A stretch of DNA of 64,000 nucleotides from assembly GCF_006345805.1 (NCBI RefSeq), contig NC_043020.1, positions 5,332,001 to 5,396,000 of the forward strand. The letters are read 5' to 3'. Origin of the DNA: Octopus sinensis. Its lineage: Eukaryota. Shown in pieces: positions 938 to 39,260 of this stretch (its first letter is position 1; each line of letters opens with the position of its first letter). The notes under the pieces are model-generated. The model did not search any database, was not told where the DNA came from, and saw nothing but the letters and a program-made list of their open reading frames with translations. Position numbers and translations under genes: made by a program.

Positions 938-1040
938 CTGTTTCGTTGCTGACGTAGATCTGTTCAAAGTCCTTCTCCATGAGCTTCTGTTTATTCTGTA
1001 AGTTCTCTTGGCGCTTGTAGGGAGGAAGGAACACCTGCTT
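938..1040 (-). CDS. CEP295: CEP295 exon KQVFLPPYKRQENLQNKQKLMEKDFEQIYVSNET
   Basis: Acceptor atttccag, phase 0; resembles LPYKR...ELEFAFEDMY; donor gtctcg is weak, so the end is uncertain. Confidence 0.75.
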
Positions 1041-4000
1041 CTGGAAATGCAATTCGAAATACGGAAAGGGAAAGATATTAAATTAAGTTATAAAATAACG
1101 CAGAGAAATGTTAGTTTCAAAATTTGGGATGCGGCGGTGGGGGGGGGGGCATAGGAGTGAATTACATCAACCTCCCCCCGACCCAGTATTAGACTGGTAC
1201 TTCATTTATTTACCCACCAAAAAAAAAAAAAAAAATCTTTTTTTCTGTAGAAGTTTCTCGACCTCAACGAAATTTGAACTCAGAATGTAAGGATGGATGG
1301 AATGTTGCTAAGCATTTCGTCCGGCATGCCAATAATTCTGCCAGATCACTGCCTTAAATTTTGGCACAAGGTCAGCAATTTTGAGGGGAGAGGGTAAGTT
1401 GATTACATCTACCCCCAGTGATCAACTGCTACCTATTTATATCAAATCCGACAAGGTGTAAAGAGGACCCTGGTGGAATAAGATTTTGAATGCAAAGATG
1501 GGCAAGAAAAATATTGATTTCTTCATTGCCCACAGGGTGGGGGCTAAACAAGGACAGGCAAAGGGATTAAGTCGATTACATCAACTGCAGTGCGTAACTG
1601 GTACTTATTTAATCGACTCCAAAAGGATGAAAGGCAAAGTCGACCTCTGCAGAATTTAAACTCAGAACGTAAAGACAGACAAAATGCCGTTAAGCATTTT
1701 GCCTGGCATGCTAATGTTTCTGCCAGCTCTCTGCCTTAATGTGGAAAAATATTAAAAATCAAAAATATTGATGGAAAATGTGTACGACAATTAACAGAAA
1801 GGATGAAACACAAACAGAATTTGAACTCATTTTAACAGCCAATATTATTTTTCCTATGCAGAGTCATTATGATTTCGGTGCATAGGAAAAATTGGTATCA
1901 GTTGCCTGAAAGAGTATCCACCAGACAAAGCGAAAACAAAGACAAGTCTTATGATTAAAAACACAAAGAAAGTTACCGAAAACGGGAAGGTGGGGTGGGT
2001 GAGAGAGAAAAGGGTCAAGTCTTAAATAACAGGATGGAGACATTAGAGGTGACACACCGACACAACAACAACAAACATACAGGATATAAAATGAAAGAGA
2101 GGAGGTGGGGTTTCAACTGGTGACAGAGACAAAAGATACTGCACCTCACGAAATGGTCAGACAACTCAGCTGATTCATGCGTTCATGAGTATGATGATGA
2201 TGATGATGGTGATGATGATGTAAATTATAGAATTGACCAATACCTTGTGAATGAAATCCGTTACACAAGAATTACATACAAACTCATTGTGGCCATAATA
2301 AAGCCTTGCTTTTTTTCGCTTCTTTCTTTTTCTATATTGCTGTAGTGTAATAGTGAGGGGAAGGAGAGGCAGAGGAAATGAGAGAGTTGGCCAGAGAGAA
2401 GAGGATGGAGAGGGTGAAAGACAAAGTGATGCTAGGAGAGGTGGAGTAGGCATGACAGAGAGAGAGAGAGAGAGAGAGGGAGGGAGGGATGAGAAGAGAA
2501 GAGTAAATTTCACTCACACACACACAAACACACAAATTATGTCATAGGTTAATTATGATGTAACAATGAATTTTGGACATTTCTTTTTTTTTTACCTTCA
2601 ATTCTGGTATTTTTGAGGAAAATCTATTTTCAATCAAAAACACACGCAAACACACGTCACACATACATACACACCAAACACTGAATTATATCATCGTTTA
2701 ATGTCCGCTTTCCATGCTGGCATGGGTTGGACGATTTTGACTGAGGACTGGCGAACCAGATGGCTGCACCAGGCTCCAATCTTGATCTGGCAGAGTTTCT
2801 ACAGCTGGATGCCCTTCCTAACGCCAACCACTCCAGTGTCATGTGAAAAGCACTTGTGCTGGTGCCACATAAACCCCCCCCCAAAAAAAACCCAAATCAA
2901 ACAGCTGTGCTGGTGCCAGGTAAAAAGTACCCGGTACACTCTGTAAAGTGGTTGGCATTAGGAAGGGCATCCAGCTGCAGAAACTAAGCTAGAACAGGTA
3001 AGTAGAGTCTGGCGCAGTTCTTTGGCTTGCCTTCTCTAGTTAAAACCATCCAACCCATGCCAGCATTGAAAACAGAAATATGATGATGATGATGAGGAAG
3101 AGTGTGTAATCTCTCTATATATAAACAGCAAAATGTCTGTCTGTGTGTCCTTTATATAAATCCACAATTTTTCAGTTAGAGGGCTCGCACTTTCTATGGT
3201 CATTCAAAACCGTCCAAGGGTGGTCGTGCACATCTTTACATTTCCCCAGTCACCCCACAAATCTCTATATATATAAATGGCAAAATGTCTGTCTGTGTGT
3301 GTGTCCTTTATACAAATCCACAATTTTTCAGTTAGAGGGCTCGCACTTTCTATGGTCATTCAAAACCGTCCAAGGGTGGTCGTGCACATCTTTACATTTC
3401 CCCTGTCACCCCGCAAAGCTATTACAAAAAATCAATAGAAGTGACTTTTTTGCGAATTTTCTATCCAAAACCCAATCAAAATGCCCGAAACTTGATACGC
3501 CAATTGAATGCCAGCTAGCTGTATGTGACTGGTCGTAGATTTGGACAGTACTCGCGTGTATGTGTGCACGCACGCAGCTGTACACGCATGCACTAGCACT
3601 ATGACCTGGTGTTGCCGGGTCATAGTGCTAGTACTCTTTTACTCTTTTACTTGTTTCAGTCATTTGACTGCAGCCATGCTGGAGCACCGCTTTTAGTCGA
3701 GCAAATCGACCCTGGGACTTATTCTTTGTAAGCCCAGTACTTATTCTATCGGTGTCTTTTGCCGAACCGCTAAGTGACGGGGACGTAAACACACCAGCAT
3801 CGGTTGTCAGGCAATGCTAGGGGGACAAACACAACAACAAAAACATATACACACACACTTATATATATATACATATATACGACAGGCTTCTTTTCAGTTT
3901 CCGTCTACCAAATCCACTCACAAGGCATTGGTCGGCCCGGGGCTATAGCAGGAGACACTTGCCCAAGGTTCCACGCAGTGGGACTGAACCCGGAACCATG

Positions 4001-5433
4001 TGGTTGGTTAGCAAGCTACTTACCACACAGCCACTCCTGCACCTATGTAGATGATAAAATACCAATAATGTAAATGAAAAAATTGAAACTTACAGGAATT
4101 TTCGCCAAATTCTTCTGTCTCTGCCTGGTCTGCTTCTTCTGAATGAAGCTGATCTCCTTCATCATCATTTTACTATCCTGGAATGGAAAAAGGAAGAGAC
4201 AACAAGTCAAAGTTGGCTTTACACAACTGTAGCAGTTTGGTACAATTACGCAGATATTCAAGAATAATAAACCTTTCAAACCCACACAGTAAAAGACAGC
4301 ACAGCAAGTTTACAGATAAAGGTTCATCTACTCAATTAGGGAGCTGAGTGATGAGGTAGATTTTCATTAAGAGGGACCAATAACGGAGTATCTATGTAAC
4401 TGCATGACCAGAAAATTAGGGGTTATTGAATACCCTATATTATGATAGGGTATTCTATAAAAACTCTGTTGTATTCAGGGTACTGCATAAAAACTATTGC
4501 ATAAAGGCTCTATAAGAGCCTTTTACGGTTAATTCACCTACTAGAAATAACAACCAAATCTCCATAAAGCACACACTTTAAATCTTAACCCTTTCGTTAC
4601 CAACCCGGCTGAAACCGGCTCTGTGGTACAAATGTCTTGTTTGCAAAAGTTCTAAATTAAAATCTTCCACCAAACCTTAGTCACAATTTATGTTCCTAAC
4701 ACTAGCTTAATGATAACGAAGTTATTTTACTAAATTCTTTGTTGTAATTCAAAGTAATTGAAAGAAACACAGAACATCTCAACAGAAATACAGTAATGAA
4801 AGGGTTAAGAGAGGAAGATCAAATCGAATAATGTAGTCCTTGATACATAAGGTTCACCACATGGTCCAGTCCTTGTTGTGGTGTGAAGGCTTGTATGGAT
4901 TAATGACCCTAAGAGCTATGCTAGCAGAGTGTAAGCACTTGATAGGCTCTCCTATGCTGGACAGGTCAAAGGATGGAGGTTAGACTAAAATGGATCACCT
5001 CTTCTCAGTGTAGAACCAACAACACTACTTGGAAAAATGTCAAGTTATAGAAGCATCGATGATAACTGAAAACCAACAAGACCTGGGAGAGGATGACCTT
5101 CACTCGGGGAATCTTGACATGGGACAGTAAACTCCGAAAGGAAGTTACAAGGCCAACTCCCCATCTGATGATGAGAAGAAATGCCAAAGTTGCCATACAG
5201 AGGACCTGTAGCAGAATGGATTGAGGTCAGATGCCAATGGAAGAACAGATCCTGAAGCACAAGTGGGATGGGATGGGCCACACCTCAAGGAAACCAAGAT
5301 CCTGCATTACACATAAGGTCTGGACTTGGAACCCACAAGCGAGGCAGAAGAGAGGATAACTGAAGAGATGGCGGTGTGGTTTTCCACCTCGGCGTTTTAT
5401 CATGGCTACCGAATAATTGTCACAGATAAATTC

Positions 5434-5469
<36 letters not shown>

Positions 5470-8400
5470 CAGTGGAGTGCTGAAACATTCCTGGCTTTGA
5501 GTAAAAGCAAATACAGGAGGATCGGTTAATTATGGTTTTATTCAACATATTCCCCTTTCAGGTTCATACATTCTCACTGCAGTAGTCCTTCAGTTTTTCT
5601 AAGCCCTGTAGAAGAACTTGGAATGTTGGGCCTCCAACCAGGCCTTTCGTGACACTCTTAAAGCCAGGAACTTTCCAGCAAGCTCTCATAAATATATACA
5701 CACACACACGCTGGGCTTCTTTCAGTTTCCATCATCCAAACTTACTCATAATGCTATTGGAGAAAACACTTTCAATTTTAACTACCAGTCAATATGCGTA
5801 GGAGTGGCAGTGTGGTAAGTAGCTTGCTTACCAGCCATATGGTTCCAGGTTCAGTCCCACTGCGTGGCACCTTGGGCAGGTGTCTTCTACTATAGCCTCA
5901 GGCCGACCAAAGCCTTGAGTGGATTTGGTAGACGGAAACTGAAAGAAGCCTGTCGTATATGTATATGTGTGTGTGTGTGTGTTTGTGTTTGTCCCCACCA
6001 ACATCGGTTATCAACCGATGGTGGTGTGTTTACGTCCCCGTAACTTAGTGGTTCGGCAAAAGAGACCGATAGAATAAGTACTAGGCTTACAAAGAATAAG
6101 TCCTGGGGTCGATTTGCTCGGCTAAAGGCGGTGCTCCAGCATGGCCACAGTCAAAATGACTGAAACAAGTACAAGAGTAAAAGAGTCTATCTTTTGTTGA
6201 GAAATGTCATATTAGAAACCAAATTCTTTGTTTCAAGATATTCCACGTTTATCGAGGCAATTCCAGTTTTTGGTAGATATTTAACATCATTACAGGAATA
6301 ACCAACACTAGGCATCCTCTAAGATACGAACCCGTATGCTGCGACATTCTGTCTGCTCTTTTCACCTGATATAAAAAGTTTTGAACTTTCTATTCCAAGG
6401 GAGACAACTTCAACCCCTTTCAGATTTCAAATCTAAGGGAGACGACTTAATCCTTTGCTATTCCTGTAGTTTTTGTAACCTTCGTTACTAAATTTGGTGA
6501 TCTGTTTTTTTCTGGAGTTTTCTTTTTTTGTCAACACCTTGAAAAATGGCCGCTAATCATTCTTTGAGGACAAGAGTATTTTAAGGGCCCCAGAAAAAAT
6601 TTTTGCGTTAGGATCTGTGTATTGGTATGTATTGCAAGAAACATCTAAGTTTCTTTCTTTAACATTCTACCTACATAGACCAACCTATACACAATTTGAT
6701 GTGTGAAAACATTATACATCGAAGAGGCCATGGAACAGAAGAAAAAAGACATGCACCCAACACCAGAGCTGAAGACACCACCGAAAGGGTGGGGGCCCCG
6801 CCACGTCAAAACGGTAGAGGAGTAGGGGCCGAAACTGGATGTGTTTCCTCCTGATGATGTCTTGAGCTAACTGGATCCTATAAAGGAACTGTTGTGGTAG
6901 CAGACCACGAAACATGGTTGTAATTCCTCCATTCTATAAAACTAGTTTTTAAACAATGAATGGCTAACGGTTGAAAACGCCTGATTTGGTCAATGAATTA
7001 ATGGTAGATAAAAGTTTGGAGATGATAACCAGAGTGGTATTTGAGGGGCAGTCCCGAAGTTTTGAAACTTTTTTAAGAGAAGTAGTTATAACTGTCTTAG
7101 ATTATTGTAATTTTAGTATGTCAGTGTGGAGGCGCAATGGCCCAGTGGTTAGGGCAGTGGACTCACGGTCGTATGATTGCAGTTTCGATTCTCACACCAG
7201 GCGTTGTGTTTATTGAGTGAAAACGCCCAAAGTCCCAGGAGATATGGTGAACCCTGCTGTACTCTTTTACCACAACTTTCTCTCACTCTTTCTGTTTCTG
7301 TTGTACCTGTATTTCAAAGGGACCAGCCTTGTCACACTCTGTGTCACGCTGAATCTTCCCGAGAACTACGTCAAGGGTACGCGTGTCTGTGGAGTGCTCA
7401 GCCACTTGTATGTTAATTTTACGAGCAGGCTGCTCCATTGATCGGATCAACTGGAACCCCCACCATCGTAACCGATGGAGTGCCACGAGTATATCACTAC
7501 TGTGCTTCTAATAAGCTGACCTGCCACCTTTTGTTATTCTAGTAAACGACTGTAACAGCACTTTGAACACATCCTACTAAACACTGTTTGTGGCATCTGA
7601 CTAGTTTTGCAGAATGCTGTCCGGACATGAAGACAATATGGAAGATCACTCTGCAATAAAGTTTCCATTGTTAAACTGGGCAAAAATACGATACAAAAAC
7701 TTATGAAATATTCCAGACTACGGATCTTTTCGGTTTGACCGGCAGCTTTTAAAAATAATTTCCACGTAACTAAACACTTTTAAACTTCGTATACTGGTAG
7801 AATGTGTTTATAAAACATCTTTTTCTCTTGGCTTTATTGAGAAGATTCTATAGTTTGTAAAATATTCGTTGTTTTTTTTTCTTCAATTTCTGCAATTTCA
7901 ACCAATCACTGACGACAATTGGTGTTGGTTTGTTTATGTCCCCATGACATAGTTGCCTGGCAAAAGTGACTGATAGAGAACACGTACCAGATTTTACAAA
8001 AAAAAAAAAAAGTCCTGGGGTCAATTTGTTCGACTAAACCCTTCAAGGTAGTGCCCCATGATGGTCGCAGTCCAATGACTAAAACAAGAACAGGAAATTT
8101 TGAACTAAGAATCACCAACTTACCCTATTGAGCAATTCTATTTGTAAGGCTTTTTGGTAACGTTCCTTCTGAATATGTTCCTGTTTCTCTGAGGTCTGCT
8201 TTATTTGTCGTTGTTGTTCTTGGAGAAGTAAATCTTGAGCTTGGGCCGCAAGGTAACCGTCTTTCACCTGAAATGAAGAGAGTTGGGGTTTCATTGACTT
8301 TTCGCAGGTGCTACAATTTCTATGGAGGGTTAAGCCGGCAAGCTGGTAGAATCGTTAGCACGCCGAGTGAAATGCTTAGCGGTATTTCATCTGCCGTTAC

Positions 8401-11400
8401 GTTCTGAGTTCAAATTCCGCCATGGAAAATGGATGTTAAATGATGATGACGTGCTGTCAACACAAGGAGACACATGCATTCACATAATCTTATTAAAAGG
8501 GGAAGAGCATGGGTGAATGATAATGATTTCCTTACCGATTTCTTGTCATGTTTTTCCACGACCGGAGGAGATGGATAAGAAATTCGGGAATGCGGGGCAG
8601 TGGTCTTGTTCTTTTTTGCAGGAACCGCTGAAGCGAAGCAGAACATGAAGAAATTATGCCAATCAATATCAAACAAAGGAAAATTAAAAGTGCACAAACA
8701 GCTCAAAACATTCACACACACATACATACATACAGGCCTAGACACATGCATACATACCAAGGCACACACAGCCATAGACACACACAAACACACACCCATA
8801 CAAAGACACACACACAAAGTTGTAAACTGTTTGTTATTGCAATTAAAAGCTCGAATTAAAAGCTCTGCATACCCGAGGCACCAGTAGGTTTCAGGGGTTA
8901 TCAAAAGAGAATGTGCAGTATTTGAGGGCCTTTCTCTTGGACAGCTTTACTGCACACCAGCTCCTCCCTTACCGATTTAAGGCATTGCTTACGGGATCAA
9001 CTGACTACTATCCAGTTTTAAGTCTTTCCCCTTAGGGGTCATCAGCACTGTTCAAATCATGGGGTCGTGCTGGTTTGACTTGCCACACACACCACCAGGC
9101 AACTGCTTCACACTCACACAGGTATTAATAATTGTTTCATTAGGCATGGCCGTGTGGTATGAAACTTGCTTCCCAACCACATTGTTCCAGGTTCAGTCCC
9201 ACTGCATTGCACCTTGGACAAAAGTCTTCTAGTATAGCCTCGGGTCAACCAAAGCCTTGCGAGTGGATTTGGTAGGTGGAAACTGAAAGAAGCCTGTTGT
9301 GTGTGTGTGGCTACTTGTGTCTATGTTTGTCTCCCACCACTGCCTGACAACTGGTATTGGTATGGCAGAAACGTTAGCACACCGGGCGAAATGCTTAGCC
9401 GTATTTCGTCTGCCGCTACGTTCTGAGTTCAAATTCCGCCGAGGTCAACTTTGCCTTTCATCCTTTCAGGGTCGATTAAATAAGTACCGGTTACGCACTG
9501 GGATCGATGTAATCGACTTAATTCATTTGTCTGTCCTTGTTCGTCCCCTCTGTGTTTAGCCCCTTGTGGGTAGTAAAGAAATAGGTATTGGTGTGTTTAA
9601 CCCCCTGTAACTTAGCAGTTTGGCAAAAAAGACAAACAGAATAAGTACCAGGCTTTAGAAAGAGGGAAAAAAATAAGTCCTGGTGTTGATTTATTCAACT
9701 AAAATAATTCTTCAAGGCAGCACTCCAGCATGGCCACAGTCTAATGATTGAACCAAGCCAAAGATAAAAGACCCAAGGTTATCAGTCTTTCATTGTTACC
9801 ATTTCGCAGCATCCCCCCCTGCACTTGTTTTCCTGGTCTTTTAATCATTCAGGGGATTCTACTTGTGCAACAAAAAAAACGTCTAAGAAATTGCAAACAA
9901 GTTCTGCAAACGTTAAAACCCAGAAATGTCACAGAGAAGAAATTCTTTACTTACTCAATTGCTTGACTTCTTCAAAAATGTTTTTCTCTGGCTGAGGCAA
10001 TGATGCTATCTTCATTGCTCGCGCCTTCTCCGTTTCCAAAGCTGCTTTCCTGAGGAGAAGAAAAAAACATTGGTTGTGAAAACGGAATGGTAATTGCAAA
10101 ACAAGAATTATTCACTTGGGTTTCCTAAAAAGTGGCAAGCTGCCAGAATTCTTAGGACGTGGAACTATCTCAAGTGGACTGTCTCTCCTCTCTTGGATAA
10201 CTATAAAAAAAAAGAAAAGACACACACACACAAAAAGCAGTGAATTCATCTATCATCATTTAACTTCTCTTTTTCCATGCTGGCATGGGTTGGATGAGTT
10301 GAAGAGACAAGCGAGAGGGCTCAGGTAAGTTCTTTGTTTGAATTAAGAAAACAGGTACGTGGTTTCCTTTATGTCAACATAGTATCGTATCATTACCAGC
10401 GTTGCCTTACTGGCACTTGTGCCAGTGACATGTGAAAAACATTTGATCAAGGTCGTTGCCAGTACCACTAGATGAACTCCTGTGTAGGTGGCATGTAAAA
10501 AACACCACTTGAGCGTGGCCGTTGCTAGTACTGCCTGACTGGCTCTTGTGCCGGTGGCACGTAAAAAGCACCCACTACACTCTCAGAATGGTTGGCGTTA
10601 GGAAGGGCATCCAGCTGTAGAAACTCTGCCAGATCAGATTGGAGCTTGGTGCAGCCATCTGGTTCACCAGCACCCAGTCAAATCGGCCAACCCATGCTAG
10701 CATGGAAAGCGGACGTTAAACGATGATGATGATTATTGCCTTCCATATAAACAAGAACCCCCCAACCGGTATGCTGTGGCACACTGGTGTGCCACAAGAG
10801 GAATACTATGTGTGACGCAGTGTAACCCGAATATAAAATTTTCCACTATACTTTTAGTTATATTTTTAGTTCAGGTGTGCTACCAAATTTTGGAAAGAAT
10901 GTAAGTGTACTGCATGTAAGAAAAAAAAAAAGAAGGTTGCCGAACACCGATGAGCTGGCAGAAACGTTAGCACGCTGGGCGAAGTGCGTAGCTGTATTTC
11001 ATCTGCCGTTACGTTCTGAGTTCAAATTTCACCGAGGTTGACTTTGCCTTCTATCCTTTCGGGGTCATTTAAATAAGTACCAATTACGCACTGGGATCAA
11101 TATAATCGACTTAATCCGTTTGTCTGTCCTTGTTTGACCCTTCTGTGTTTAGCCCCTTGTGGGCAATAAAAAAATAGGTATAAACTAGCAAGCGGTCAAT
11201 AGGATTGAAGGGAAATAATTCATGCCGAAAAGACTGTCAACACATCGCAATTTTGTCTATCTATCTATCTGCAATTATTCAAGCACGCAGTAAACAAAAG
11301 ATAGACAGTAGAGACACTTGAGTCAGTGATTAAAATCTATTTACCCGCCAACCTGCATCACCACCGGATAAGTTACCTCTACAACAAACGAAATTGATGA

Positions 11401-12223: not shown

Positions 12224-12266
<43 letters not shown>

Positions 12267-25764: not shown

Positions 25765-25800
<36 letters not shown>

Positions 25801-25851: not shown

Positions 25852-25884
<33 letters not shown>

Positions 25885-25966
25885 CGTATATATATATATA
25901 TATACATATGTATATGTATATATGTATATGTATATATGTATATGTATATATATGTATATATATATG

Positions 25967-26019
<53 letters not shown>

Positions 26020-26598: not shown

Positions 26599-26650
<52 letters not shown>

Positions 26651-27224: not shown

Positions 27225-30200
27225 CTGAAATGGAGAAGGGTTTTTTTTGAAGAATTAGATGCGGGGAGAGAGAGAGAGACTGAGTGTTTGTATGAGGGAG
27301 GTGGACAGAGGGAGGGAGTGAGTGAAGTGGGGAAACAAGTGTGTTTCTATGAGACAGAGAGAGATACTGTGTTTATGTGAATGTATGTCTGTGTGTGTGT
27401 GTGAGAGAGAGAGAAGGAGAGAGAGAGGGAAGGAGAGATGTGATGGCTGACGGTCAGTAAGGAGAGACACAAATAAGAAAGAAGAAAGCAAAGGACCACT
27501 GATGAGGTCACAGGAGTGTGACGAAAGAACTCTGGCCGAAATAAGATTAAGATTAATGTAAAAAAATAAATAACACTGAAGCAAAATAACACCAAGACCC
27601 CAGGATTTATTCATTGTAAGCCTAGTACTAATTCTGTCGGCCTCTTCGCTGAACCACTACATTACGGGGGACATAAACACACCAACACCGGTTGTGAGGT
27701 GATGGTATGGGATCAAACACGGACACAAAGACGCACACACACACATAGATACATACATATTTAAATCTCCGTCTAGCAAATCCACTCACAAGGATTTGGT
27801 CAGCTCAAGGTGCCACGCCGTGGGACTGAACCCGCAACCATGAGGTTGGGAAACAAACATCTTACCACACAGCCATGCCTGCACCAATCTATCTATGTAT
27901 ATATAATTTTATTGGTTGAGTCAGTGGAGAGAATAAAATCAATTCTAAGAAACATTATCATCATCATCATTGTTTGGCGTCTGCTTTCCATGCTGGGAGG
28001 CGGCACCAGACTCCAGTCTGATTTGGTAAGGTTTCTACAGCTGGGTGCCCTTCCTAATGTCAACCACCCCAAGAGTGTAGTGGGTGCTTTTTACGTGCCA
28101 CCAACATGGGGGCCAGTCAGGTGGCATTGGCATCATCCACACTCAAATGGTGCTTTTTATGTGCCACTGGCACAGGAGCCAGTCAGGCGGCACTGGCATC
28201 GAGCCAAAATTTTATTTAAAAAAAAAAGAAAAAAGAAAAAGGTTAAAATTCATGAGTGATGACTTACCACACTATCATTCGGTTTAGGCTCAATGCCTAT
28301 CGCATCAATCACATGTTGAAGGTTTGTTTGACTAGTTGAGTTTAGGGCACCGTTTAGGGCTGATAGTGATTGGTGGACTCTGTCCCCAACTTCTTTACTT
28401 AACCGAAGGTCGACATCATCTCTTTTGTTCTCCTTCTCCATCTCTTCTTCTAATTCTTTGTCATGTTCTTTTTCTTTCTCTTCTTCCACTTCTTCAACTT
28501 CCAATTCTTCTTCTTCTTCATCATCATCACCATCTTGTTCTTCTTTGTCTTCCGTTTCTGGGAAAAGTAGAGAGATTAAAAGCAAATTAAGATAAATATA
28601 TAAACATGAGCACTCAGAGAGTGCAAACTTCCGCCAAGGCAACACCAACGACCTATCAACGATTAACTGGAGATGATTTTTAAAATGAGAATATCTGAAA
28701 TAAACTCAACTGCTCTCTCAAACGAGAATACTAAAAATGAACCCGATCGCTCTAAAAAATTGAGTAAAAAAAACGGAAAAATAATCCAGAATCCTTATCC
28801 GGTACCTGATCAATTCCCATGGTAGTCATGGAATATGAGTGTGGCTGTAGAAAATTTAGTAACATTCATGTGTGTGTGTGTGTGTATGTGTGTGATGCAA
28901 AAATAAAAAAAGTACATGAAGACAATGTAAAAAACCAAAACAAACAAACAAGGTATATAAGGATGATGCTCAAAAGAATTGGAAGAACTCGATGTTTTGA
29001 GCCAATTCTCTTCTTCAGGAATGAAAGGATAGATGAAGAGAGAATCTTACCTTGATAAAATTCTTCCCTTGCTTGTCTGTTCTGTTGTTGATTTCCCAGT
29101 TGTAATTCTACTTTTGCTGTTTCCTCGTCAACGTCCCTGTAATTAATGCGGTGGAGCAAGAAAACAGAACTTTGCAAAATAGCTCAGCTAAACAAAAACA
29201 CAAAATATGATAAAAAAACAAAACAAACAAAATACCTTATTCAGATAATAAAATAAAAATAAATGCGCCCTTTTAAAGCCTAGCCAGGCTCATGGGCCCG
29301 GTTTCCTGGTTTCTATGGCCTACGTGTTCCCCAGCTGGACGGGACGCCAGTCCATCGCAGCGTTACTCATTTATGCCAGCTGAGTGGACTGGAGCAACGT
29401 GAAATGAAGTGTTTTGCTCAAGAACACAACGCGTCGCCCGGTCCAGGAATCGAAACCACAATCTTACGATCATGATGCTGACACCCTAACAGAAAACACT
29501 GATTACTGTACCGTAAGTAACCAGAATAGATCTGGTACATACTTAACTGGCATTCTGCCGGTTAGGACAACAAGGGTTCCAGTTGATTTGATCAACAGAA
29601 TAGCCTGCTCATGAAATTAATGTGAAAGTAGCTGAGAACTTAGTGTAAATCATGCAGGTGAAAGCATCAAAATTTACCAAAAGAAGTGATTCCAGTGCTT
29701 TTTTGTTTTTAAAGCCTAATACTTATTCCATTGGTCTGTTTTCCCAATCCACTAAGCTACAGGGACAAAAACAAACCAACACTGATTGTCAAGCGGTGGC
29801 AGGGAACAAACACAGACATGAAGGACTTCTTTCAGATTTTGGTCGACCTGAGGTTATAGTAGAAGATACTTGCCCAAGGTGCCACACAGAGATTGAACTT
29901 AGAACCATGTGGTTGGGAAGCAAACCTCTTATTAACCAGCCACACCTGTGCTTGCCTACCTACATACATACATACACACTGACACACACATACACATATA
30001 TGATGGGCTTTTGTCAGTTTCTGTTTACCAAATCCACTCACAAGGCTTTGGTTGGTCCGAAGCTATAGTAGATGACACTTGCCAAAGGTGCCATGCAGTG
30101 GAATTGAACCAGGAACCATGTGGTTGGTAAGCAAGCTACTTACCACACAGCCACTCCTGAGCCTATTGCTTACCATTTTACATTCTGTTAAATATTTCAA

Positions 30201-33200
30201 AAGTCAAAGAATTTGTCTATGCAGCCCTTTCAAAATCATAACCCATCCCTTAGGTTGGGACCCACCGTGCTAAAGGGATCAAAATATAAATGATTCTGCT
30301 TTCGTTACTTAACCCTTTAGTGTTCGCATTATTCTGCCAAAATCAATGCTTCTTCATCCACATTGTTTTGAACTAATCAGGCATTATCTTGTAGCTATGA
30401 GATTTTGATGAGGTAACTGTTAATTTTTAAAACGACATTGTAGGGTTGGTGTGAGAGACCAGATCTGGCCAGTTTGAACATAAAACAGGTAGAATATTTT
30501 TGGCCGGATATGGACGGTTTAAATGCTAAAGGGTTAAAGGAAAAAGCAGTAATGTTACCCACCTGGCCTGTGCCATCCAAACCTCATCAAAATTCTCTTC
30601 CACTTCATCAATCTCCAACTGCATTTTGGTTTTGTGGTTCTTCAGTTTTTCGGTTTGATCCGAGATTATTTTCCCCAAAACAACTTTCTCGGCCTAACAA
30701 GAAACAAAAATAAAAGAATAGATGCATACAACATATCAACATTCCCTTTTAACATCCAATTTTTAAAAAATGGCCCTGGGTGGAGACAATTGGGTTGAAA
30801 GGGCCCAAGTGGTGGAAGTATAAGACCAGCCAGCCAGCTCTGAGGAGCAGGGGCCATTTATCATCATCATCATCATCGTTTAATGACCGTTCTCCATGCT
30901 AGCATGGGTTGGACAGTTCGACCAGGGATCTGGGAAGCCAGAAGGCTGCACCAGGCCCCAGTCTGATCTGGCAGAGTTTCTACAGCTGGATTCCCTTTCT
31001 AATGCCAGTATCATCTCTTGGGAAAGGTAGGAGAGTCCAGTTTGCTGGACATTGTTGTAGAACTGAAAACGAGGTAATTTCTACTCTTCTCCTCTGGAAG
31101 CCATCTGCTCGCGATACCAGAGGGCGCACACTCTCCTACCCTGATGTAATCTCCAGGGATACAGGCATCCAGCAACAGGACCTCCGTAATGCTATGATGG
31201 ACCGTAAAGTCTGGCGTAGCATGGTAAATTCCATTGTCTCGACCACAGTCGAACAATGATGATGATGATGGGTACTTTTTACATACCACTGGCAGAAGAG
31301 CCAGTCAAGCGGGCCTGGCATTGATCGCATTCAGATAGTGCTTTTTATGCGCCACCGGCACAAAAGGCCAGTCAGGGGGCAGGGTTATGGTCTACAACAG
31401 AGACCGAGATTTTAGGAAGTTTTTACCCACCTTTAATAACTCTAACTGTTCTTTCAGACTAGAATACTCTTTCATATATTCTTTATGCTTGACCAGATCT
31501 TGATGAAGTTGCTGGTTCTCATTCTGTAGAGTTTCCAGCATCTCGTAGTCGTTCTGCAATTAAGAAACAAGAAATATATGAAACCAACCCGGATTTAGAA
31601 ATTATTTTTATCTGGAAAGAAAAAAAAAAAAATTTTGTGCTTAGAATCTCGGACATTGTTTGGTGTCCGTGTCGGTGACATGTAAAAGCACCAAGCGATT
31701 GTGGCCGTTTGTCAGCCTGCTCTGGCCCCTGTGCCGGTGGCACGTAAAAAGCACCCACTACACTCACGGAGTGGTTGGCGTTAGGAAGGGCATCCAGCCG
31801 TAGAAACACTGCCAGATAAGACTAGAGCCTAGAGCAGCCTCCATGGCTTCCCAGATCCCCGGTCGAACCGTCCAACCCATGCTAGCATGGAAAACAGATG
31901 TTAAATGATGATGATGATGATGATGGTGATGATGATGTTTATGTAAACTACCCAGGTACTAACTAGGTGCAGGAGTGGCTGTGTGGTAAGTAGTTTGCTT
32001 ACCAACCACATGGTTCCGGGTTCAGTCCCACTGCGTGGCATCTTGGGCAAGTGTCTTCAGCTATAGCCTCGGGCCGACCAATGCCTTGTGAGTGGAATTG
32101 GCAGACGGAAACTGAAAGAATCCTGTCGTATATATGTATATATATATATATATATGTGTGTATATATGTTTGTGTGTCTGTGTTTGTCTCCCCACCATCG
32201 CTTGACAACCGATGCTGGTGTGTTTACGTCCCCGTCACTTAGCGGTTCGGCAAAAAGAGACCGATAGAATAAGTACTGGGCTTACAAAGAATAAGTCCCG
32301 GGGTCGATTTGCTCGATTAAAGGCGGTGCTCCAGCATGGCCACAGTCAAATGACTGAAACAAGTAAAAGAGTAAGAGGTACATTTGCCACTAACCTTCAT
32401 TTGATGTGCTTGGTCTTCTTGGTACTGTTCGAGTTCGGACTGCAGGTTGGTGATGGTGGCCAGTTTCGTTTGCAGATCGGTCCTCAACGTAATTACGGCT
32501 CTCTTGAGGAGGTCATCGGATTTACCATAGTCACTGAAACGAAACCGCAATTCGCAGACGATTGAATGCAATCGTTTTAAAATCCAAGGAGATTAGTTGT
32601 GGTATTAACGACAGGGAGGAGATGACAAGGGTCTGGCAGTTTGGATTTGGTGATGCTGGAGATGATCATTTGGCATGGCTGGGTATTGAACCTCTCTTTT
32701 GGCACTGGAGGCAAACACACATACACCCACACACACATGAAGTGAAACATATATAGTGGGAGAGAGAGAGGACATTCTATTAATTGAACACAATTGACAG
32801 AAATGCTTTTCCTCTCTTCATATTTTCTTATTGCTCTATAAATTAATGGAAAATAACTCTACCTTCACCCATTGAGTACACTTGGTAATGTAATTGCCAT
32901 GCAATGAAAAAACACCTGTGTATTAATAATTGGGTATTCTACCGGCAGTATATTGGATAAATATTATCCCTTAGTTGGTTGGATTCAAAACCTCTAACTT
33001 TCTTGGAATATATATATATATAAATATATATATATATGGTAAGCTTCTTTCAATTACTGTCAACGAAATAAATTACAAAGCTTTAGTACAAAGACTTTCC
33101 CAAGGTGCTGTGCAGTGAGATTGAACCTGAGACCACTTGGTTTGGCAGCAAATCTCTTAACCACACAGCCATGCCAGCAACCTAAACGCAATTCCATATC

Positions 33201-36200
33201 AATCCCAATAATATTAGGCGCAGGAGTGGCTGTGTGGTAAGTAGCTTGTTTACCAACCACATGGTTCCGGGTTCAGTCCCACTGCGTGGCACCTTGGGCA
33301 AGTGTCTTCTACTATAGCCTCGGGCCGACCAAAGCCTTGTGAGTGGATTTGGTAGACGGAAACTGAAAGAAGCCCGTCGTATAAATGTGTATGTGTGTGT
33401 GTGTTTGTCCCCCTAGCATTGCTTGACAACCGATGCTGGTGTGTTAATGTCCCTGTAACTTAGCGGTTCGGCAAAAGAGACCGATAGAATAAGTACTGGG
33501 CTTACAAAAGAATAAGTCCTGGGGTCGAGTTGCTTGATTAAAGGCATGGCCGCAGTCAAATGACTGAAACAAGTAAAAGAGTACTTACATCAGATCATCA
33601 TTCTGCTGCTTAATCAAAAGCCGAAATTTATAAATTTCGTGTTCGCCTTCCTGCCGCTGTTTCTCGGATTCTTCAAGATTCATTGTGAGGCTCTCGTTTG
33701 CAGCTTCCAAATTCTGAAATCCAAACGGTAATATCTAGAATATTATCAGAAATATTAAATTTCTAAATATCTCATAGAGATATGTGTGGTGGTGGAGCGA
33801 TAGAGTGGTTGTATACTTATTTCTTTATTGCCCACAAGGGGCTAAACATAGAGGGGACAAACAAGGACAGACAAAGGGATTAAGTCGAATACATCGACCC
33901 CAGTGCGAAACTGGTACTTGATTTATCGACCCCGAAAGGATGAAAGGCAAAGTCGACCTCGGCGGAATTTGAACTCAGAATGTAACGGCTGACGGAATAC
34001 CTCTCAGCATTTCGCCCGGCGTGCTAACGTTTCTGCCAGCTCGCCGCCTTATATACTGTCAACTTAACGTGACAGTCCCATCTTCAGCTAGCAGGCCTTG
34101 CTACTCTAGACTGATGATGGGCAAGACCCAGAAACATGCATGTCTCTAGATGCAGGCCTAGCTGTTGGGGGTGTTTGTCTCCCCTTCGTAAATATATAAG
34201 GACACAGGAAATGTGTCAAGGCCGACAGGAAGCGTCGATGTTTCCTAGGGCTAAATAGCGGTGGTGTAATTCCCTTTATGGGGACTGTCACGTTAAGTTG
34301 ACAGTATACAACCACTCTATAATATTATCCTTTCTACTAAAAGCACAAAGCCTGAAATTTTTGGGGAAGGGACCAGTTGGTTACATCGACCCCCAGTGTT
34401 TCACTGGTACTTAATTTATTGACCCCCGAAAGGATGAAAGGCAAAGTTGACCTCACCAGAATATGAACTCGGAATATAATACATCTGATATAATAAATAT
34501 GGGCATATGGCATAGTGGTTAAGAGCACGGGCTACTAACCCCAAGATTCCGAGTTCAATTCCAGGCAGTGACCTGAATAATAATGATCTCGAAAAATACC
34601 TTAGGAATGAGAACCCAATGGTAAGTAGCTTGCTTACCAACCACATGGTTCCAGGTTCATTCCCACTGCGCAGCACCTTGGGCATGTGTCTTCTATTATA
34701 GCCTCGGGCCAACCAAAGCCTTGTGAGTGGATTTGGTAGACGGAAACTGAAAGAAGCCCGTCGTATATATGTATATATGAGTGTATATGGTTGTGTGTGC
34801 ATGTGTTTGTGTTTGTCCACCCCACCCTCCAAACATCACTTGACAACCGATAGAATAAGTACCAGGCGAACAAAGAATAAGTTAGTTAGTTAGTTAGTTA
34901 TTTTTTGGCTCAAAAAGCAAAAAGCAAGGCCATGTAGGGGGACATGGAGTTATGTACAGGGTGGTGTTCATGTAAAGAGTTCAGGCCACTCGAGGTCAAG
35001 GGAGACTTTGAACCGAGCGGCCGTCGGCATCTTCACCATCTCGTCTGGCAGCTTATTCCACGGATCCGCAACCCGGACAGAGAAAGCCCCCTCTCCTTCG
35101 ATTGAGATGAAATCGTCACAGATAGAGCTTTTCGGAATGACCCCGCAGCCGACGCTCTGGAGCAGGAGTGAAGAACAGCTCTTTGGGGTCGATTTGCTTG
35201 ACTAAAGGCGGTGCTCCAGCATGGCCACAGTCAAATGACTGAAACAAGTAAAAGAGTATATGTGTGTGTGTGTCCCCGTCCAATACTGTCATCGCATGAT
35301 GGTTGTAAAGGAGCGTTATTCGTCTCCAATATTCCGTGGAAAGCATGTCCGGTCATGTGGAAAATATTACCTTGTTTGGAAACAGGTGGGGGTTGGGTGA
35401 CAGGAGCGGCATCCTGTTGTTATCAAAGTAAGTTTAAAGGAAGATCTACCATTATGAAGGAGGAGGAGGAGGTGGTGGTGGTCATTATAGGAAGCAAAGT
35501 GATTTTTACCTCTCGTTTCCTTTGTAGAACTTTGCATTCAGATTCCATGGATTCAAATTGTCCCTGGAGGATGTCTTTTTCCTCTTGGACAGCTTTCAAT
35601 TGCTTCTCACATTCCTGTGGAAAATAATAATATCAAAATAACAATAATTATAGTAAGAATGGTTTCAAAGTTATTTTACTAAATTTTTGGTTAAATCTAA
35701 ATTAATTGAAAGAAACACAGAACATCTGAAAATAAATACGGTAACGAAAGGGTTAATCAATTTCATTGACCCTAGTACTTGACTTGTACTCTAATTTATT
35801 ACTGACCCTGGAAAGATAAAAGGGAGGACGTTACCTTTAGCCTTTCTGTAAGCTGCTGGATTCGCTGGTTCTTCTCGTCGTCCTGTCCATCTGCAGATTT
35901 GCTGCGTTTCTCCATGCTGTGCATCTTGCGCAAGAATGTTTTATGCAGCCGCTCATGTTCGGTTCTTAGAAGAGCTGCCTGGAATGGTAAAAAGCAAAGC
36001 AAAAACTCACTGAATAAATCAAAGAATGGTGAAGAACTGAATAATTTATCATCATCATCCTCATCATCGTTTAACGTCTGCTTTCCATGCTAGAAACCAG
36101 ACCAAATCAGACTGGAGACTGGTGCAGACCCTCAGCTTATCAGCTCTGGTCAAACTGTCTAACCAATGGAAAATGGACACTGATGATGACAGTGATGATT

Positions 36201-37001
36201 GGCTGGAGTTTGAGGAAACGGAATATTATTTATTCCGTTTGCAAAACAATGGGGACCAAACATCATCTTCATCATCGCTTTATATGCTGGCATAGGTTGG
36301 ACGGTGCAACTGGGGTCTGGGAAGCCAGAAGGCTGCACCAGGCCCAGTCTAATCTGGTAGTGTTTCTACGGCTGTATGCCCTTCTTAACGCCAACCACTC
36401 CATGAGTGTAGTGGGTGCTTTTTACGTGCCACCGGCACAGGTACCAGACGAGGCTGGCAAACGGCCATGATCGGATGGTGCTAATGATAAAAAAACAGAA
36501 AATTAAATCCAAAGAATTCGACCAAATTGGTTTACCTTTGACTTGAGATTTGTCACTTGCGTCTCATGTATCTCTTCTGCTTTCTGTTTCTCTGCTGTGA
36601 GCCATTCAACCTGGGACTGCAGTGCCAGGATCTGTCAAAGAGAATTTAACCCTTTAGCATTCAGATTATTCTGTGAAATGTATTGCTTATTTATTCGCAT
36701 TGTTTTGAATCGATCAGGTATTATCTTGTAGCTTCGAGATTTTGGTGATGTACTCTCTCTTTACTCTTTCACTTGTTTCAGTCATTTGACTGTGGCCATG
36801 CTGGAGCACCGCCTTTAGTCGAGCAAATCAACCCCGGGACTTATTCTTTGTAAGCCTAGTACTTATTCTATCGGTCTCTTTTGCCGAACTGCTAAGCTAC
36901 GGGGACATAAACACACCAGCATCGGTTATCAAGTGATGTTGGGAGGACATCCAGCGGTGCTCCAGCATGGCCACAGTCAAATGACTAAAACAAGTAAAAG
37001 A

Positions 37002-37039
<38 letters not shown>

Positions 37040-37238
37040 AATCCAAACATGAAAACACGATAACGTGAGGACGTGGAACAAATATAGTATTATTGAATGC
37101 TCAGGAAGGAAGGGAAGAAGGAGGGTTTAACGTTTCGAGCACAGCTCTTTGTCAGAAACATAGGAAAAGGAAAAATCTAAAGAAGAGAAGACAGACGAAA
37201 AAAATTTCGCCAACAGTACACATGCAGTCACATTTTGA

Positions 37239-37275
<37 letters not shown>

Positions 37276-39260
37276 AACATATAATGGGCTTCTTTCAGTT
37301 TCCACCTACAAAATCCAGTCTCAAGACAGGTCAGTCTGTGGCTAAGTATGCATAAGGTGCCATGCAATGTAATTGAACCTGAACTCACAGGATTCGTAAG
37401 TAAACTTAAAGAATAAGGCTTTGAAAGTCTGCGACTGACCTTTTTGGAATTCTCTTCAAGAGTTATTTTCTGTTGCTGACATTCCTTTGTCTTCTTCTCA
37501 AAATGTTTATAAACTTTCTTGACTTGCTGTTTCAAGTCGGTCTCGCGGTTCTTAACAAGAATATCGATATGTTGAACCAATTCTTGTAATTCTTGCTCAC
37601 AGGATCTCATCAAAACGCCATCAACTGGGAGTCTGAAGAGGAACAGAGGTGAAAGGGAGAAACATAAAAAATTGAGTTTACCATATGAAACCCAAATGTA
37701 GAAACCTTATTAATCATGTTTATAATAGTTTATACTAGTTGGAGACATCATCATCATCGTTTAATGTCTGTTTTCCATGCTAGCATGGGTTGGACAATTT
37801 TGACTGAGGACTGGTGAACCAGATGGCTGCACCAGGTTCCAATCTTGATCTGGTAGAGTTTCTACAGTTGGATGCCCTTCCTAATGCCAAACACTCTGAG
37901 AGTATAGTGGGTGCTTTTTATGTGCCACCGGCTCGGGGGCCAGTCAGGCGGTACTGGCACATTCCTAATATTTAATATTTTGCATATTGCGGAAGAATAA
38001 CCAATTTATTTAGGTGGGATGGGGGGCTCTGGAGAGGGTTTCAGAGAGTAGCATCCCTGGCGGTGAGCTGGCAGAATCGATAGCACACCAGGCGAAATGC
38101 TTAATGGTATTTCGTCTGCCGCTACATTCTGAGTTCAAATTCTGCCAAGGTCGACTTTGCCTTTCATCCTTTCAGGCTCGATAAATTAAGTACCAGTTAC
38201 GCACTGGGGTCAATGTAATTGACATAATCCATTTGTCTGTCTTTGTTTGTCCCCTCTGTGTTTAGCCCCTTGTGGGCAGTAAAGAGATAGGTATTTCATC
38301 AATCGTTACGTTCTGAGTTCAATTTCTGCCGAGGTCGACTTTGCCTTTCATCCTTCCGGGGTTGATTAAACAAGTACCAATTATGCAGTGGGGTCGATGT
38401 AATTGACTTAATCTGTTTGTCTGTCCTTGTTTGTCCGCTCTGTGTATAGGCCTTTGTGGGCAGCAAAGAAATGGGAGTAGCATCCCTGCCCTCCTGAGCT
38501 AGTTTTCTACCACATTTCTTAAAAATTGTGGTAGAGGCCTTGGTCTTAGGACCACTCATGTCTAGAAACTGAGGTTGGGAGTAAACAAGGGCATGCTCCC
38601 TGTAGAAAACCCAGCTCCAAAAAAGCCTCATGATAACAAAGGAGAATGGGCCCCAACCAGCCCAACGGTTGGGGTGGGCTGCACCTACTTACCTCAGTTG
38701 CTATGGCATTGAGGTAGATCCAGCCACCCCCATTAACGGAGACAAAACCCAGATTTAAGACACTCGTCTAAAGCACAGTTTTTTCATGAAAAAAGCACCC
38801 ACTACACTCACGGAGTGGTTGGCGTTAGGAAGGGCATTCAGCCGTAGAAACACTGCCAGATCTGACTGGACCTGATGAAGCCTTCCGGCTTCCCAGACCC
38901 CAGTTGAACCGTCCAACCCATGCTAGCATGGAAAACGGACGCTAAATGATGATGATTCCCCAATTTACTATATTGCATCCGTGGAGCCCCAGATTCTATA
39001 TGGACCCTGGTTGAGAACCCCTGATTTAGATGATCTATCATGTGAAGTCTGGCTGCTGACCGGCCAATAACAAACATGTCATGGTTTTAACTTTGTAATT
39101 CGACAGTGCAGGTTCAAGTCTCAGTACGTCTTGGTCTCTTATTATTTATTCAATAAAGTTGTGCAGTTTAAAACAATACAAATGTCCACTAAATGACTTA
39201 CATGTTTTGATTTTCCAAATCTTTCCACAGATTTTGCGGGGATGCATCGTTATCGGTCAT
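27078..39260 (-). CDS. CEP63: CEP63/DEUP1 (CCDC67) family centriolar coiled-coil protein, 545 aa, complete
   Basis: Exons 39202-39260, 37440-37632, 36536-36631, 35835-35978, 35510-35614, 33589-33713, 32395-32533, 31431-31553, 30563-30693, 29051-29136, 28268-28557, 27078-27224 sum to 1638 nt in one frame. N-terminal SCEQELQELVQHIDILV matches the family motif SCEAELQELMKQIDIMV; C-terminal EFLHKEQ...NTEGVIQRY matches the family end. Confidence 0.88.
28268..28557 (-). CDS. CEP63: CEP63 acidic exon ETEDKEEQDGDDDEEEEE...NDSV
   Basis: tcccag / gtaagt, 290 nt, phase 1-0. Confidence 0.85.
29051..29136 (-). CDS. CEP63: CEP63 exon DVDEETAKVEL...EEFYQ
   Basis: ttacag / gtaaga, 86 nt, phase 2-1. Confidence 0.82.
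30309..30537. mobile_element. piggyBac-type MITE family 2
   Basis: TTAA|CCCTTTAG...CTAAAGGG|TTAA; partial copies at 36646-36750 and 13603-13765. Confidence 0.78.
30563..30693 (-). CDS. CEP63: CEP63 exon AEKVVLGKII...WMAQA
   Basis: tgttag / gtgggt, 131 nt, phase 0-2. Confidence 0.82.
31010..31270 (+). mobile_element. RTE LINE 3' fragment nested in family C element
   Basis: RRVQFAGHCCR...LLLWKP...RGRTLSYPD...AMMDRKVWR then (GAT)n. Confidence 0.8.
31431..31553 (-). CDS. CEP63: CEP63 exon NDYEMLETLQNEN...LELLK
   Basis: ttgcag / gtgggt, 123 nt, phase 0-0. Confidence 0.82.
31967..32374 (+). mobile_element. SINE family A, full length
   Basis: Collinear with other copies. Confidence 0.9.
32395..32533 (-). 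CDS. CEP63: CEP63 exon DYGKSDDLLKRA...HQMK
   Basis: tttcag / gttagt, 139 nt, phase 2-0. Confidence 0.85.
33216..33583 (+). mobile_element. SINE family A abutting a CEP63 splice donor
   Basis: Collinear; tail aagtaaaagagta runs into cttac. Confidence 0.9.
33589..33713 (-). CDS. CEP63: CEP63 exon NLEAANESL...QNDDL
   Basis: tttcag / gtaagt, 125 nt, phase 0-2. Confidence 0.85.
33800..34320. mobile_element. MITE with ~41 bp TIRs; left TIR split by a SINE
   Basis: atagagtggttgtatac[SINE]tgtcaacttaacgtgacagtccca ... tgggactgtcacgttaagttgacagtatacaaccactctat; partial copy 57677-57832. Confidence 0.8.
34882..35180 (-). mobile_element. CR1-type LINE 3' end
   Basis: RLRGHSEKL...WNKLP; (ctaa)n tail; same family as 54085-54395. 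Confidence 0.8.
35510..35614 (-). CDS. CEP63: CEP63 exon ECEKQLKAVQ...RKRE
   Basis: ccacag / gtaaaa, 105 nt, phase 0-0. Confidence 0.85.
35835..35978 (-). CDS. CEP63: CEP63 exon AALLRTEHERL...ERLK
   Basis: ttccag / gtaacg, 144 nt, phase 0-0. Confidence 0.87.
36536..36631 (-). CDS. CEP63: CEP63 exon ILALQSQVEWL...LKSK
   Basis: tgacag / gtaaac, 96 nt, phase 0-0. Confidence 0.87.
37125..37159 (-). ncRNA. Degenerate minimal hammerhead motif in pLTR-like fragment (37037-37240)
   Basis: gttt-CTGACAA-a gagc tgt gctc-GAAACGTT-aaac; G8 mutated. Confidence 0.55.
37440..37632 (-). CDS. CEP63: CEP63 exon LPVDGVLMRSCEQELQELVQHIDILV...NSKK
   Basis: cttcag / gtcagt, 193 nt, phase 2-0; family signature motif. 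Confidence 0.92.
38059..38475 (+). mobile_element. Tandem dimer of SINE family B
   Basis: Unit repeats after aaagagataggtatttc (about 38290). Confidence 0.85.
39202..39260 (-). CDS. CEP63: CEP63 first coding exon MTDNDASPQNLWKDLENQN(I)
   Basis: AAACATG start, gtaagt donor, phase 2 fits next exon; acceptor at about 39318. Confidence 0.75.

What the first reader, a model, noticed from the sequence alone, without database searches (positions are those of the whole stretch)
938..39260. CEP63/DEUP1 to CEP295 tandem pair mirrors human 11q21: possible ancient centriole-gene microsynteny
Seen: two centriole genes adjacent on the same strand, CEP63-like upstream of CEP295, ~7 kb apart. Known: human DEUP1 (CCDC67, the CEP63 paralogue) lies upstream of CEP295 at 11q21 with SMCO4 between. 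CEP63/DEUP1 bind CEP152, and CEP295/Ana1 acts in centriole-to-centrosome conversion upstream of CEP152/Asterless and CEP192. Inference: the linkage predates the protostome-deuterostome split and survived the heavy coleoid genome reshuffling. DEUP1 rather than CEP63 may occupy the ancestral locus.
Basis: partly seen in the sequence, partly recalled or inferred. Interest (0 to 1): 0.7.

Follow-up and report, generated by a model that had tools for sequence, protein, structure and literature searches.

The report
Ancient four-gene centriole neighbourhood
Two centriole genes sit side by side in this octopus with two small neighbours (COMMD2 and SMCO4), and parts of this cluster recur in a brachiopod, bivalves, squid and human, so it likely dates to the ancestor of bilaterian animals and suggests that the vertebrate multicilia gene DEUP1 is an old duplicate rather than a late offshoot.

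Summary
Observation confirmed. A 12-exon, 545-aa CEP63/DEUP1-family gene lies 6.8 kb upstream of a CEP295-like gene on the same strand. SMCO4 lies between DEUP1 and CEP295 in human.

The linkage is old and partly in print. A supplementary table of Robert et al. 2022 lists it, unremarked, as block 1624 ('Bilateria novel'). Both centriole genes are in that block in 4 of its 6 species; amphioxus and sea urchin each keep only one. A metagenome contig found with SMCO4 alone (L083) carries all four genes in 20 kb.

The likely ancestral order is CEP295-SMCO4-COMMD2-CEP63. The octopus order follows by one inversion, so the same-strand 'mirror' of human is probably convergent while the linkage is inherited. 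DEUP1 kept CEP295 and SMCO4, and a shark DEUP1 record exists, against the published lobe-fin origin. Centriole co-regulation as the reason for the linkage is unsupported.

The parts
27078..39260 (-). CEP63/DEUP1-family gene, 12 coding exons (39260-39202, 37632-37440, 36631-36536, 35978-35835, 35614-35510, 33713-33589, 32533-32395, 31553-31431, 30693-30563, 29136-29051, 28557-28268, 27224-27078), 545 aa
   Evidence: Open frame and GT-AG sites; PF17045; 9i7q; tree. The exon joins are predicted, not seen in RNA.
938..20282 (-). 5' part of a CEP295/Ana1-like gene: exon 1 at 20282-19807, then 16302-16205, 14834-14739, 13375-13271, 12144-12005, 10049-9955, 8627-8536, 8267-8124, 4177-4094, 1040-938. 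It continues about 18 kb beyond the left edge.
   Evidence: 319 aa open; two joins bridged by contigs; 33% identity over 313 aa and same intron phases as the L083 gene; squid gene in the same neighbourhood is annotated KIAA1731
20283..27077 (.). 6.8-kb gap between the two genes, mostly dispersed and simple repeats
   Evidence: Sequence; the frame at 20779-21027 is a multi-copy repeat
45430..57434 (+). COMMD2 gene, head-to-head with the CEP63-like gene (start codons 6.2 kb apart)
   Evidence: COMM domain; best PDB match COMMD2, E 9e-30, against COMMD3 at E 0.003; exons
45253..45298 (.). Candidate shared (two-way) promoter of COMMD2 and the CEP63-like gene: three ETS-type sites and two X-box-like half sites in 46 bases (motif names recalled)
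   Evidence: 3 of the 4 such 7-mers in the window lie here; 0 of 1000 base shuffles of the intergenic region gave 2 within 45 bases. Function untested.
64000..64000 (-). Marker only, at the window's last base: SMCO4 (59 aa, single coding exon) lies 105-284 bases beyond the right edge, at G000:C24:5396105-5396284, tail-to-tail with COMMD2
   Evidence: PF15012, E 2e-20, best in the genome; frame; 95% identical to Octopus 'SMCO4 homolog'

Best explanation
The two centriole genes are neighbours in this octopus because they likely descend from one compact cluster of the bilaterian ancestor, with the inferred order CEP295<- SMCO4-> <-COMMD2 CEP63->. That is two head-to-head pairs, each a centriole gene with a small housekeeping gene. 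One inferred inversion of SMCO4-COMMD2-CEP63 gives the octopus order CEP295<- <-CEP63 COMMD2-> <-SMCO4. A separate inferred flip plus loss of COMMD2 from that copy gives human CEP295-SMCO4-DEUP1. The vertebrate genome duplications probably split the cluster: DEUP1 stayed with SMCO4 and CEP295, and CEP63 stayed on the same chromosome arm as COMMD2. The linkage most likely lasted because the cluster is tight and the head-to-head pairs share promoters, not because the two centriole genes must be co-expressed. Shown: gene identities, order and strand in octopus and L083, and published co-occurrence. Inferred: ancestral order, inversions, ohnology, promoter sharing.
For: Octopus order and strands. 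L083, found with SMCO4 only, has CEP295(-) 8860-6563, SMCO4(+) 10001, COMMD2(-) start 13090 and CEP63(+) from about 16640. L048 has SMCO4 -> <- COMMD2. Block 1624: Lingula g22743/4/5 and scallop T20697/8/9 read CEP295-COMMD2-CEP63; oyster EKC38108/38110 has the two with one unnamed gene between; urchin SPU_004663/004662 has CEP295-COMMD2; amphioxus has CEP63, COMMD2 and BRCC3; Euprymna has BRCC3, COMMD2, CEP63 and KIAA1731. BRCC36 is also the next gene found on the left in octopus. Human order CCDC67, SMCO4, CEP295 (PMC6454239 Table 1). A squid-like CEP63 fragment (P0007) and an SMCO4 (P0031) are each on one ENA contig of 867,865 bases, probably the same contig. In the trees, vertebrate CEP63 and shark DEUP1 form one clade (SH-aLRT 100) with amphioxus as sister, and the octopus gene lies outside. 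Motif cluster between COMMD2 and CEP63-like.
Against: Only 6 of 49 species have rows in block 1624 in the part of the table held. Capitella, Saccoglossus and Acanthaster appear to be in that study (sheet names) but have no row. SMCO4 is not named in that table, and the oyster's middle gene could not be identified. Strand is known only for octopus, L083 and L048; human strands are recalled, so the inversion story rests on few genomes. L083 has a TALE homeobox frame between COMMD2 and CEP63 and none of the promoter motifs there. Octopus separated CEP295 from SMCO4. Only 2 of 39 SMCO4 loci showed any partner; 31 are under 5 kb, but L066, L070 and L071 have 6-9 kb on one side and no match. The trees are quick trees with one DEUP1-labelled sequence. 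Ohnology of 3q and 11q is recalled, not tested. No ALMS motif was found at the CEP295-like locus.
Confidence: 0.75

Rival explanations
1. The CEP63-CEP295 pair itself is kept together by selection for joint expression in cells that build centrioles or cilia.
For: Both act with CEP152 (PMC4926731 and PMC5007451 passages). Both are in the block in 4 of 6 species and are close in human. DZIP1, a cilium gene, is in the urchin block. X-box-like half sites lie at the candidate promoter. Robert et al. report higher co-expression in dense blocks in general.
Against: Amphioxus and urchin blocks each lack one of the two. COMMD2 is in the block in 5 of 6 species, as often as either centriole gene. Order and strand between the two genes vary. 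Vertebrate CEP63, the copy used at mother centrioles, is not beside CEP295 (recalled). Octopus DZIP1 is on another contig. No expression data were obtained.
Confidence: 0.15
2. DEUP1 alone holds the ancestral locus, and vertebrate CEP63 is a copy that moved away by a small-scale duplication rather than by genome duplication.
For: DEUP1 has two ancestral neighbours, while CEP63 has none next to it and COMMD2 is many Mb away on 3q (recalled).
Against: Vertebrate CEP63 and shark DEUP1 are about equally similar to 10 invertebrate proteins, overall and in the C-terminal helix (0.41 against 0.37-0.45). 3q, 11q, 13q and Xq are a known paralogy set (recalled). BRCC3, another cluster member, sits with Xq28-type genes in coelacanth.
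Confidence: 0.15
3. The closeness in octopus and human is chance reshuffling of genes that only share an ancestral chromosome.
For: Shuffled genomes gave 45-56 'bilaterian' blocks against 256 real ones, so some listed blocks are false. The direct adjacency in octopus does look derived.
Against: Three human neighbours lie within 45 kb in octopus; all four genes lie in 20 kb of L083, which was found without using the centriole genes; consecutive gene ids in three other lophotrochozoans.
Confidence: 0.03

Closest known systems
Microsyntenic block 1624 ('Bilateria novel'), Robert et al. 2022, BMC Genomics, PMC8851819, supplementary file 4
   Same: Same genes: CEP63 orthogroup, KIAA1731/CEP295, COMMD2, BRCC3; includes the squid Euprymna.
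   Different: It has no octopus row, no vertebrate row, no named SMCO4 and no strands, and the main text has no word beginning 'centri'. The link to human 11q21, the fourth member and the inversion are added here.
Human 11q21 segment DEUP1(CCDC67)-SMCO4-CEP295
   Same: Three of the four genes, in one neighbourhood.
   Different: SMCO4 lies between the two in human but beyond COMMD2 in octopus; COMMD2 is absent from the human segment; the human distances are larger (recalled).
MCIDAS-CCNO-CDC20B 'multiciliation locus' of vertebrates (PMC8470418, section 3.2.1)
   Same: A conserved cluster of genes for centriole and cilium formation.
   Different: It is vertebrate-only and co-regulated (recalled). 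The present cluster is older, mixes centriole and housekeeping genes, and has no shown co-regulation.
CEP63/DEUP1 family (PF17045, PF25771) and CEP295/Ana1 family
   Same: N-terminal CEP63 domain; N-terminal coiled-coil region and giant middle exons of CEP295 type.
   Different: The octopus CEP63-like protein is short (545 aa), on a long branch, with an acidic insert and a diverged C-terminal helix; no ALMS motif was found for the CEP295-like gene.

Membership tests
CEP63/DEUP1 | N-terminal CEP63/Deup1 domain (PF17045) | tested here: met
   Exon 2: E 7e-7, 29.8 bits (cut-off 33 is for whole proteins); the Argonauta orthologue passes at 40.7 bits; only PDB match is CEP63 9i7q
CEP63/DEUP1 | C-terminal CEP152-binding coiled coil (PF25771) | tested here: inconclusive
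   No Pfam match for the last exon and no match to a profile of 15 relatives. It is 43% identical over 47 aa to the end of squid-like P0002, which does match that profile at E 3e-6.
CEP63/DEUP1 | Groups with the family in a tree; orthologue of CEP63 or of DEUP1 specifically | tested here: met
   Coleoid clade, outside the vertebrate clade that holds both CEP63 and shark DEUP1, so co-orthologous to both (quick trees, no outgroup from another family)
CEP63/DEUP1 | Binds CEP152 and localises to the proximal centriole or deuterosome | not testable with these tools
   Needs cells or purified proteins; no complex prediction was run
CEP295/Ana1 | N-terminal DDC8-like region (PMC2965680, PMC5007451) | tested here: inconclusive
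   No vertebrate or fly CEP295 sequence could be fetched; single exons gave no informative Pfam match and no Atlas hit. The likeness to the human N-terminus is recalled. Indirect support: 33% identity over 313 aa and 8 of 8 intron phases shared with L083 (score 450, best of 500 shuffles 111), and the squid gene among the same neighbours is annotated KIAA1731.
CEP295/Ana1 | C-terminal ALMS motif (PF15309; in human CEP295, dispensable for centrosome rescue) | tested here: not met
   3 matches in the genome, none on C24; none seen in the 10 kb before BRCC36. The 3' end of the gene was not fully modelled.
CEP295/Ana1 | PICA motif | not tested
   No profile or reference sequence was available
Conserved microsyntenic block (Robert et al. 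definition) | Three or more orthologues, each within five intervening genes, shared across clades | tested here: met
   Octopus BRCC36, CEP295-like, CEP63-like, COMMD2 and SMCO4 lie in a row; shared with block 1624, L083 and human
Co-regulated functional gene cluster | Shared regulation or co-expression of the members | not testable with these tools
   Only contigs were available, whose depth cannot rank genes; motif cluster only

The most novel reading that the evidence does not exclude
The cluster is a regulatory unit for centriole and cilium genes more than 550 million years old, held by two-way promoters. DEUP1 is a genome-duplication twin of CEP63 that was lost in ray-finned fish, not a lobe-fin invention. 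Octopods, with at least three further CEP63-like copies on the same chromosome, repeated the CEP63-to-DEUP1 type of duplication on their own, possibly for centriole amplification in multiciliated cells.
Probability: 0.15. Interest if true: 0.65.

Novelty: new member of a known kind. Interest (0 to 1): 0.42.

Why it matters
Reviews state that Deup1 arose from Cep63 in the ancestor of lobe-finned fish and tetrapods (PMC4926731, PMC4862167). A DEUP1 that keeps the ancestral neighbours, plus a shark DEUP1 record, points to an older duplication and a loss in ray-finned fish. That changes how the origin of deuterosomes is told and makes the single invertebrate gene the natural candidate for centriole amplification in invertebrate multiciliated cells. 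The cluster is also a practical marker: SMCO4 and COMMD2 are easy to find and lead to two fast-evolving centriole genes that sequence searches miss. As a synteny fact it is one of about 256 bilaterian blocks and is already tabulated, so the surprise is moderate.

Tried and rejected
1. A third gene in the gap (signal-peptide-like frame 20779-21027): rejected, dispersed repeat.
2. Shark DEUP1 keeps a more ancestral CEP152-binding helix than CEP63: rejected, identities equal.
3. Oyster EKC38109 is SMCO4: unresolved; its orthogroup's only other row is an unnamed zebrafish gene in an NGEF/KCNJ13 block.
4. Lineage of L083: both trees place it among lophotrochozoans, but a non-bilaterian place is not rejected (p-AU 0.114). 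The cluster look-up gave no name and the Atlas gave only generic homeobox clusters. I do not claim a pre-bilaterian age.
5. Shark DEUP1 neighbours: no rows found.
6. RNA: no RNA holder is listed on record; uncovered parts say nothing.
7. Gene-name searches in supplements of PMC9023564, PMC8809688, PMC10719294 and PMC8040251 found nothing. These may use gene ids only, one file was a scan, and the last lists only trios and quartets. Supplements of Irimia et al. 2012 could not be read and may list the pair.
8. SMCO4 protein search returned 18 hits, none named from the species for which I had CEP63 accessions except Octopus, so accession adjacency could not be tested. CEP295 homologues could not be fetched.
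9. MED17 search rang nowhere.
10. Two errors corrected: the last CEP63-like exon was scanned in the wrong frame (redone), and one CEP295-like exon end was wrong (fixed).
11. Earlier scan notes: nothing relevant.
Full report
Setting. The window is G000:C24:5332001-5396000 of a 2.72-Gb genome. Its closest named relatives are octopod records.

The two genes. Twelve exons with GT-AG ends give one 545-aa frame from 39260 to 27078 on the minus strand. Exon 2 is the only PF17045 match in the genome at E <= 0.001. It matches PF17045 at E 7e-7, the solved CEP63 N-terminus 9i7q and Argonauta 'CEP63-like' at 74%. The last exon has no Pfam match but is 43% identical to the end of a squid-like protein that matches a profile of the CEP152-binding helix. 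The downstream gene has nine coding exons from 16302 to 938, giving 319 aa without a stop. Contigs from 2 of the 4 runs laid, guessed to be RNA, bridge exon 1 to exon 2 and exon 2 to exon 3. Large open frames of 573 and 1140 aa follow outside the window. Its CEP295 identity is indirect: recalled likeness to the human N-terminus, shared exon structure with L083 (33% identity over 313 aa, 8 of 8 intron phases, 5 of 8 positions exactly aligned), and the KIAA1731 annotation of the squid gene among the same neighbours. No ALMS motif was found at the locus. The gap is 6.8 kb, and the one gene-like frame I noticed in it is a repeat.

COMMD2 starts at 45430 on the plus strand, head-to-head with the CEP63-like gene. 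SMCO4 lies on the minus strand just beyond the right edge, the best of 3 genome matches. BRCC36, a kinase and a CAF1-family nuclease follow on the left. The order is BRCC36(+), CEP295-like(-), CEP63-like(-), COMMD2(+), SMCO4(-). The human order is SLC36A4, CCDC67, SMCO4, CEP295, TAF1D, C11orf54, MED17 (PMC6454239, one table passage seen). Of the other human neighbours tested, C11orf54 and ANAPC13 are on other contigs and MED17 was not detected.

Other animals, published table. Supplementary file 4 of Robert et al. 2022 (PMC8851819; main-text passages and table rows seen; the file is cut at 30,623 rows) has 24 rows for block 1624, 'Bilateria novel', in 6 of the 49 species. Both centriole genes are in the block in 4 of 6: Euprymna, Lingula, Crassostrea and Mizuhopecten. 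Lingula and scallop ids run CEP295, COMMD2, CEP63; the oyster has one unnamed gene between the two. Amphioxus has CEP63, COMMD2 and BRCC3. The sea urchin has CEP295, COMMD2 and DZIP1. No vertebrate row exists and SMCO4 is not named. Shuffled genomes gave 45-56 such blocks against 256.

Other animals, new data. A scan of metagenome contigs with an SMCO4 alignment gave 39 loci. Eight are 5 kb or longer, and 2 of 39 show a partner. L083 has CEP295(-), SMCO4(+), COMMD2(-), a TALE homeobox frame(-) and CEP63(+) within 20 kb. L048 has SMCO4 and COMMD2 tail-to-tail. L066, L070 and L071 have 6-9 kb on one side and no match. L083 groups with lophotrochozoans, but a non-bilaterian place is not rejected. 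A squid-like CEP63 fragment and an SMCO4 share an ENA contig length of 867,865 bases, probably one contig.

Reconstruction (inference). Take L083's order as ancestral, as the Lingula, scallop and urchin ids suggest. Reversing SMCO4-COMMD2-CEP63 as one piece gives exactly the octopus order and strands. Human CEP295-SMCO4 head-to-head (strands recalled) keeps the ancestral left half, while DEUP1 points the other way and COMMD2 is gone. The same-strand state of the two centriole genes in octopus and human therefore probably arose twice; the linkage did not.

DEUP1 or CEP63. I built trees from 29 and 24 rows chosen by hand from the hits (120 of 1193 hits were listed, with only one vertebrate DEUP1 among them). 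Both are quick trees; the careful search did not finish. The window protein sits in a long-branched coleoid clade. Vertebrate CEP63 and shark DEUP1 form one clade with amphioxus as sister, so the octopus gene is co-orthologous to both. Shark DEUP1 is no closer to invertebrates than CEP63 is. Two reviews (passages seen) say that Deup1 arose from cep63, or in the lobe-fin ancestor; Zhao et al. 2013 itself was not read. A Callorhinchus protein named DEUP1, outside the CEP63 clade of gar, coelacanth and reptiles, and the ancestral neighbours of human DEUP1 argue for an older duplication. With one shark sequence I cannot exclude that it is a mislabelled CEP63. That 3q (CEP63, COMMD2), 11q, 13q and Xq (BRCC3) are paralogous is recalled; one search shows coelacanth BRCC3's block holding Xq28-type genes.

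Why it lasted. COMMD2 is in the block in 5 of 6 species, as often as either centriole gene, and is head-to-head with CEP63 in octopus and L083. A tight motif cluster lies 130-180 bases before the octopus COMMD2 start, though not in L083. I favour compactness and shared promoters over centriole co-regulation; neither was tested by expression.

In print? Full-text searches found no paper with DEUP1, SMCO4 and CEP295 together and none with 'ohnolog' and CEP63. One unrelated paper held the old names. One paper held DEUP1, CEP63 and synteny, and it concerns a different locus. The listing showed no paper on linkage; I read passages from only one of the three papers. The library lacks most subscription papers, and the supplements of Irimia et al. 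2012 could not be seen.

Verdict. A real, old microsynteny, already tabulated in part. The additions are SMCO4 as a fourth member, the tie to human 11q21, a one-inversion account of the octopus order, and a testable challenge to the stated origin of DEUP1. Interest 0.42.

Noticed in passing
G000:C24 at 18.55 Mb, 19.45-19.49 Mb and 19.50-19.51 Mb: At least three further CEP63-like genes on the same contig, matching unnamed Octopus and Argonauta proteins; the one tested groups inside the coleoid clade. An octopod expansion of a family that is usually single-copy in invertebrates (recalled).
   Followed up: partly
window 40342-42088 and 42051-43784: Tandem duplication of about 1.77 kb at 96.5% identity between the CEP63-like gene and COMMD2; a recent duplication or an assembly artefact.
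   Followed up: no
window 28268-28557: Exon 11 of the CEP63-like gene encodes a long acidic run also seen in Argonauta but not in the squid-like protein.
   Followed up: no
L083:13700-14839: Single-frame TALE-class homeobox gene (380 aa) between COMMD2 and CEP63; possibly a lineage-specific TALE gene.
   Followed up: partly
L045, L047 (G000:C8594, C8597): ALMS-motif frames on two small unplaced contigs, one a duplicate of the other's end; a third match is on C5. Origin unclear.
   Followed up: no
L009:6855-8456; L016-L017; L044: A 534-aa single-frame protein kinase and a CAF1-family nuclease to the left, and phosphoglucomutase about 190 kb to the right.
   Followed up: no
window 19807 and 16302: The start codon of the CEP295-like gene appears split by intron 1 (A|TG), with an almost wholly untranslated first exon.
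   Followed up: partly
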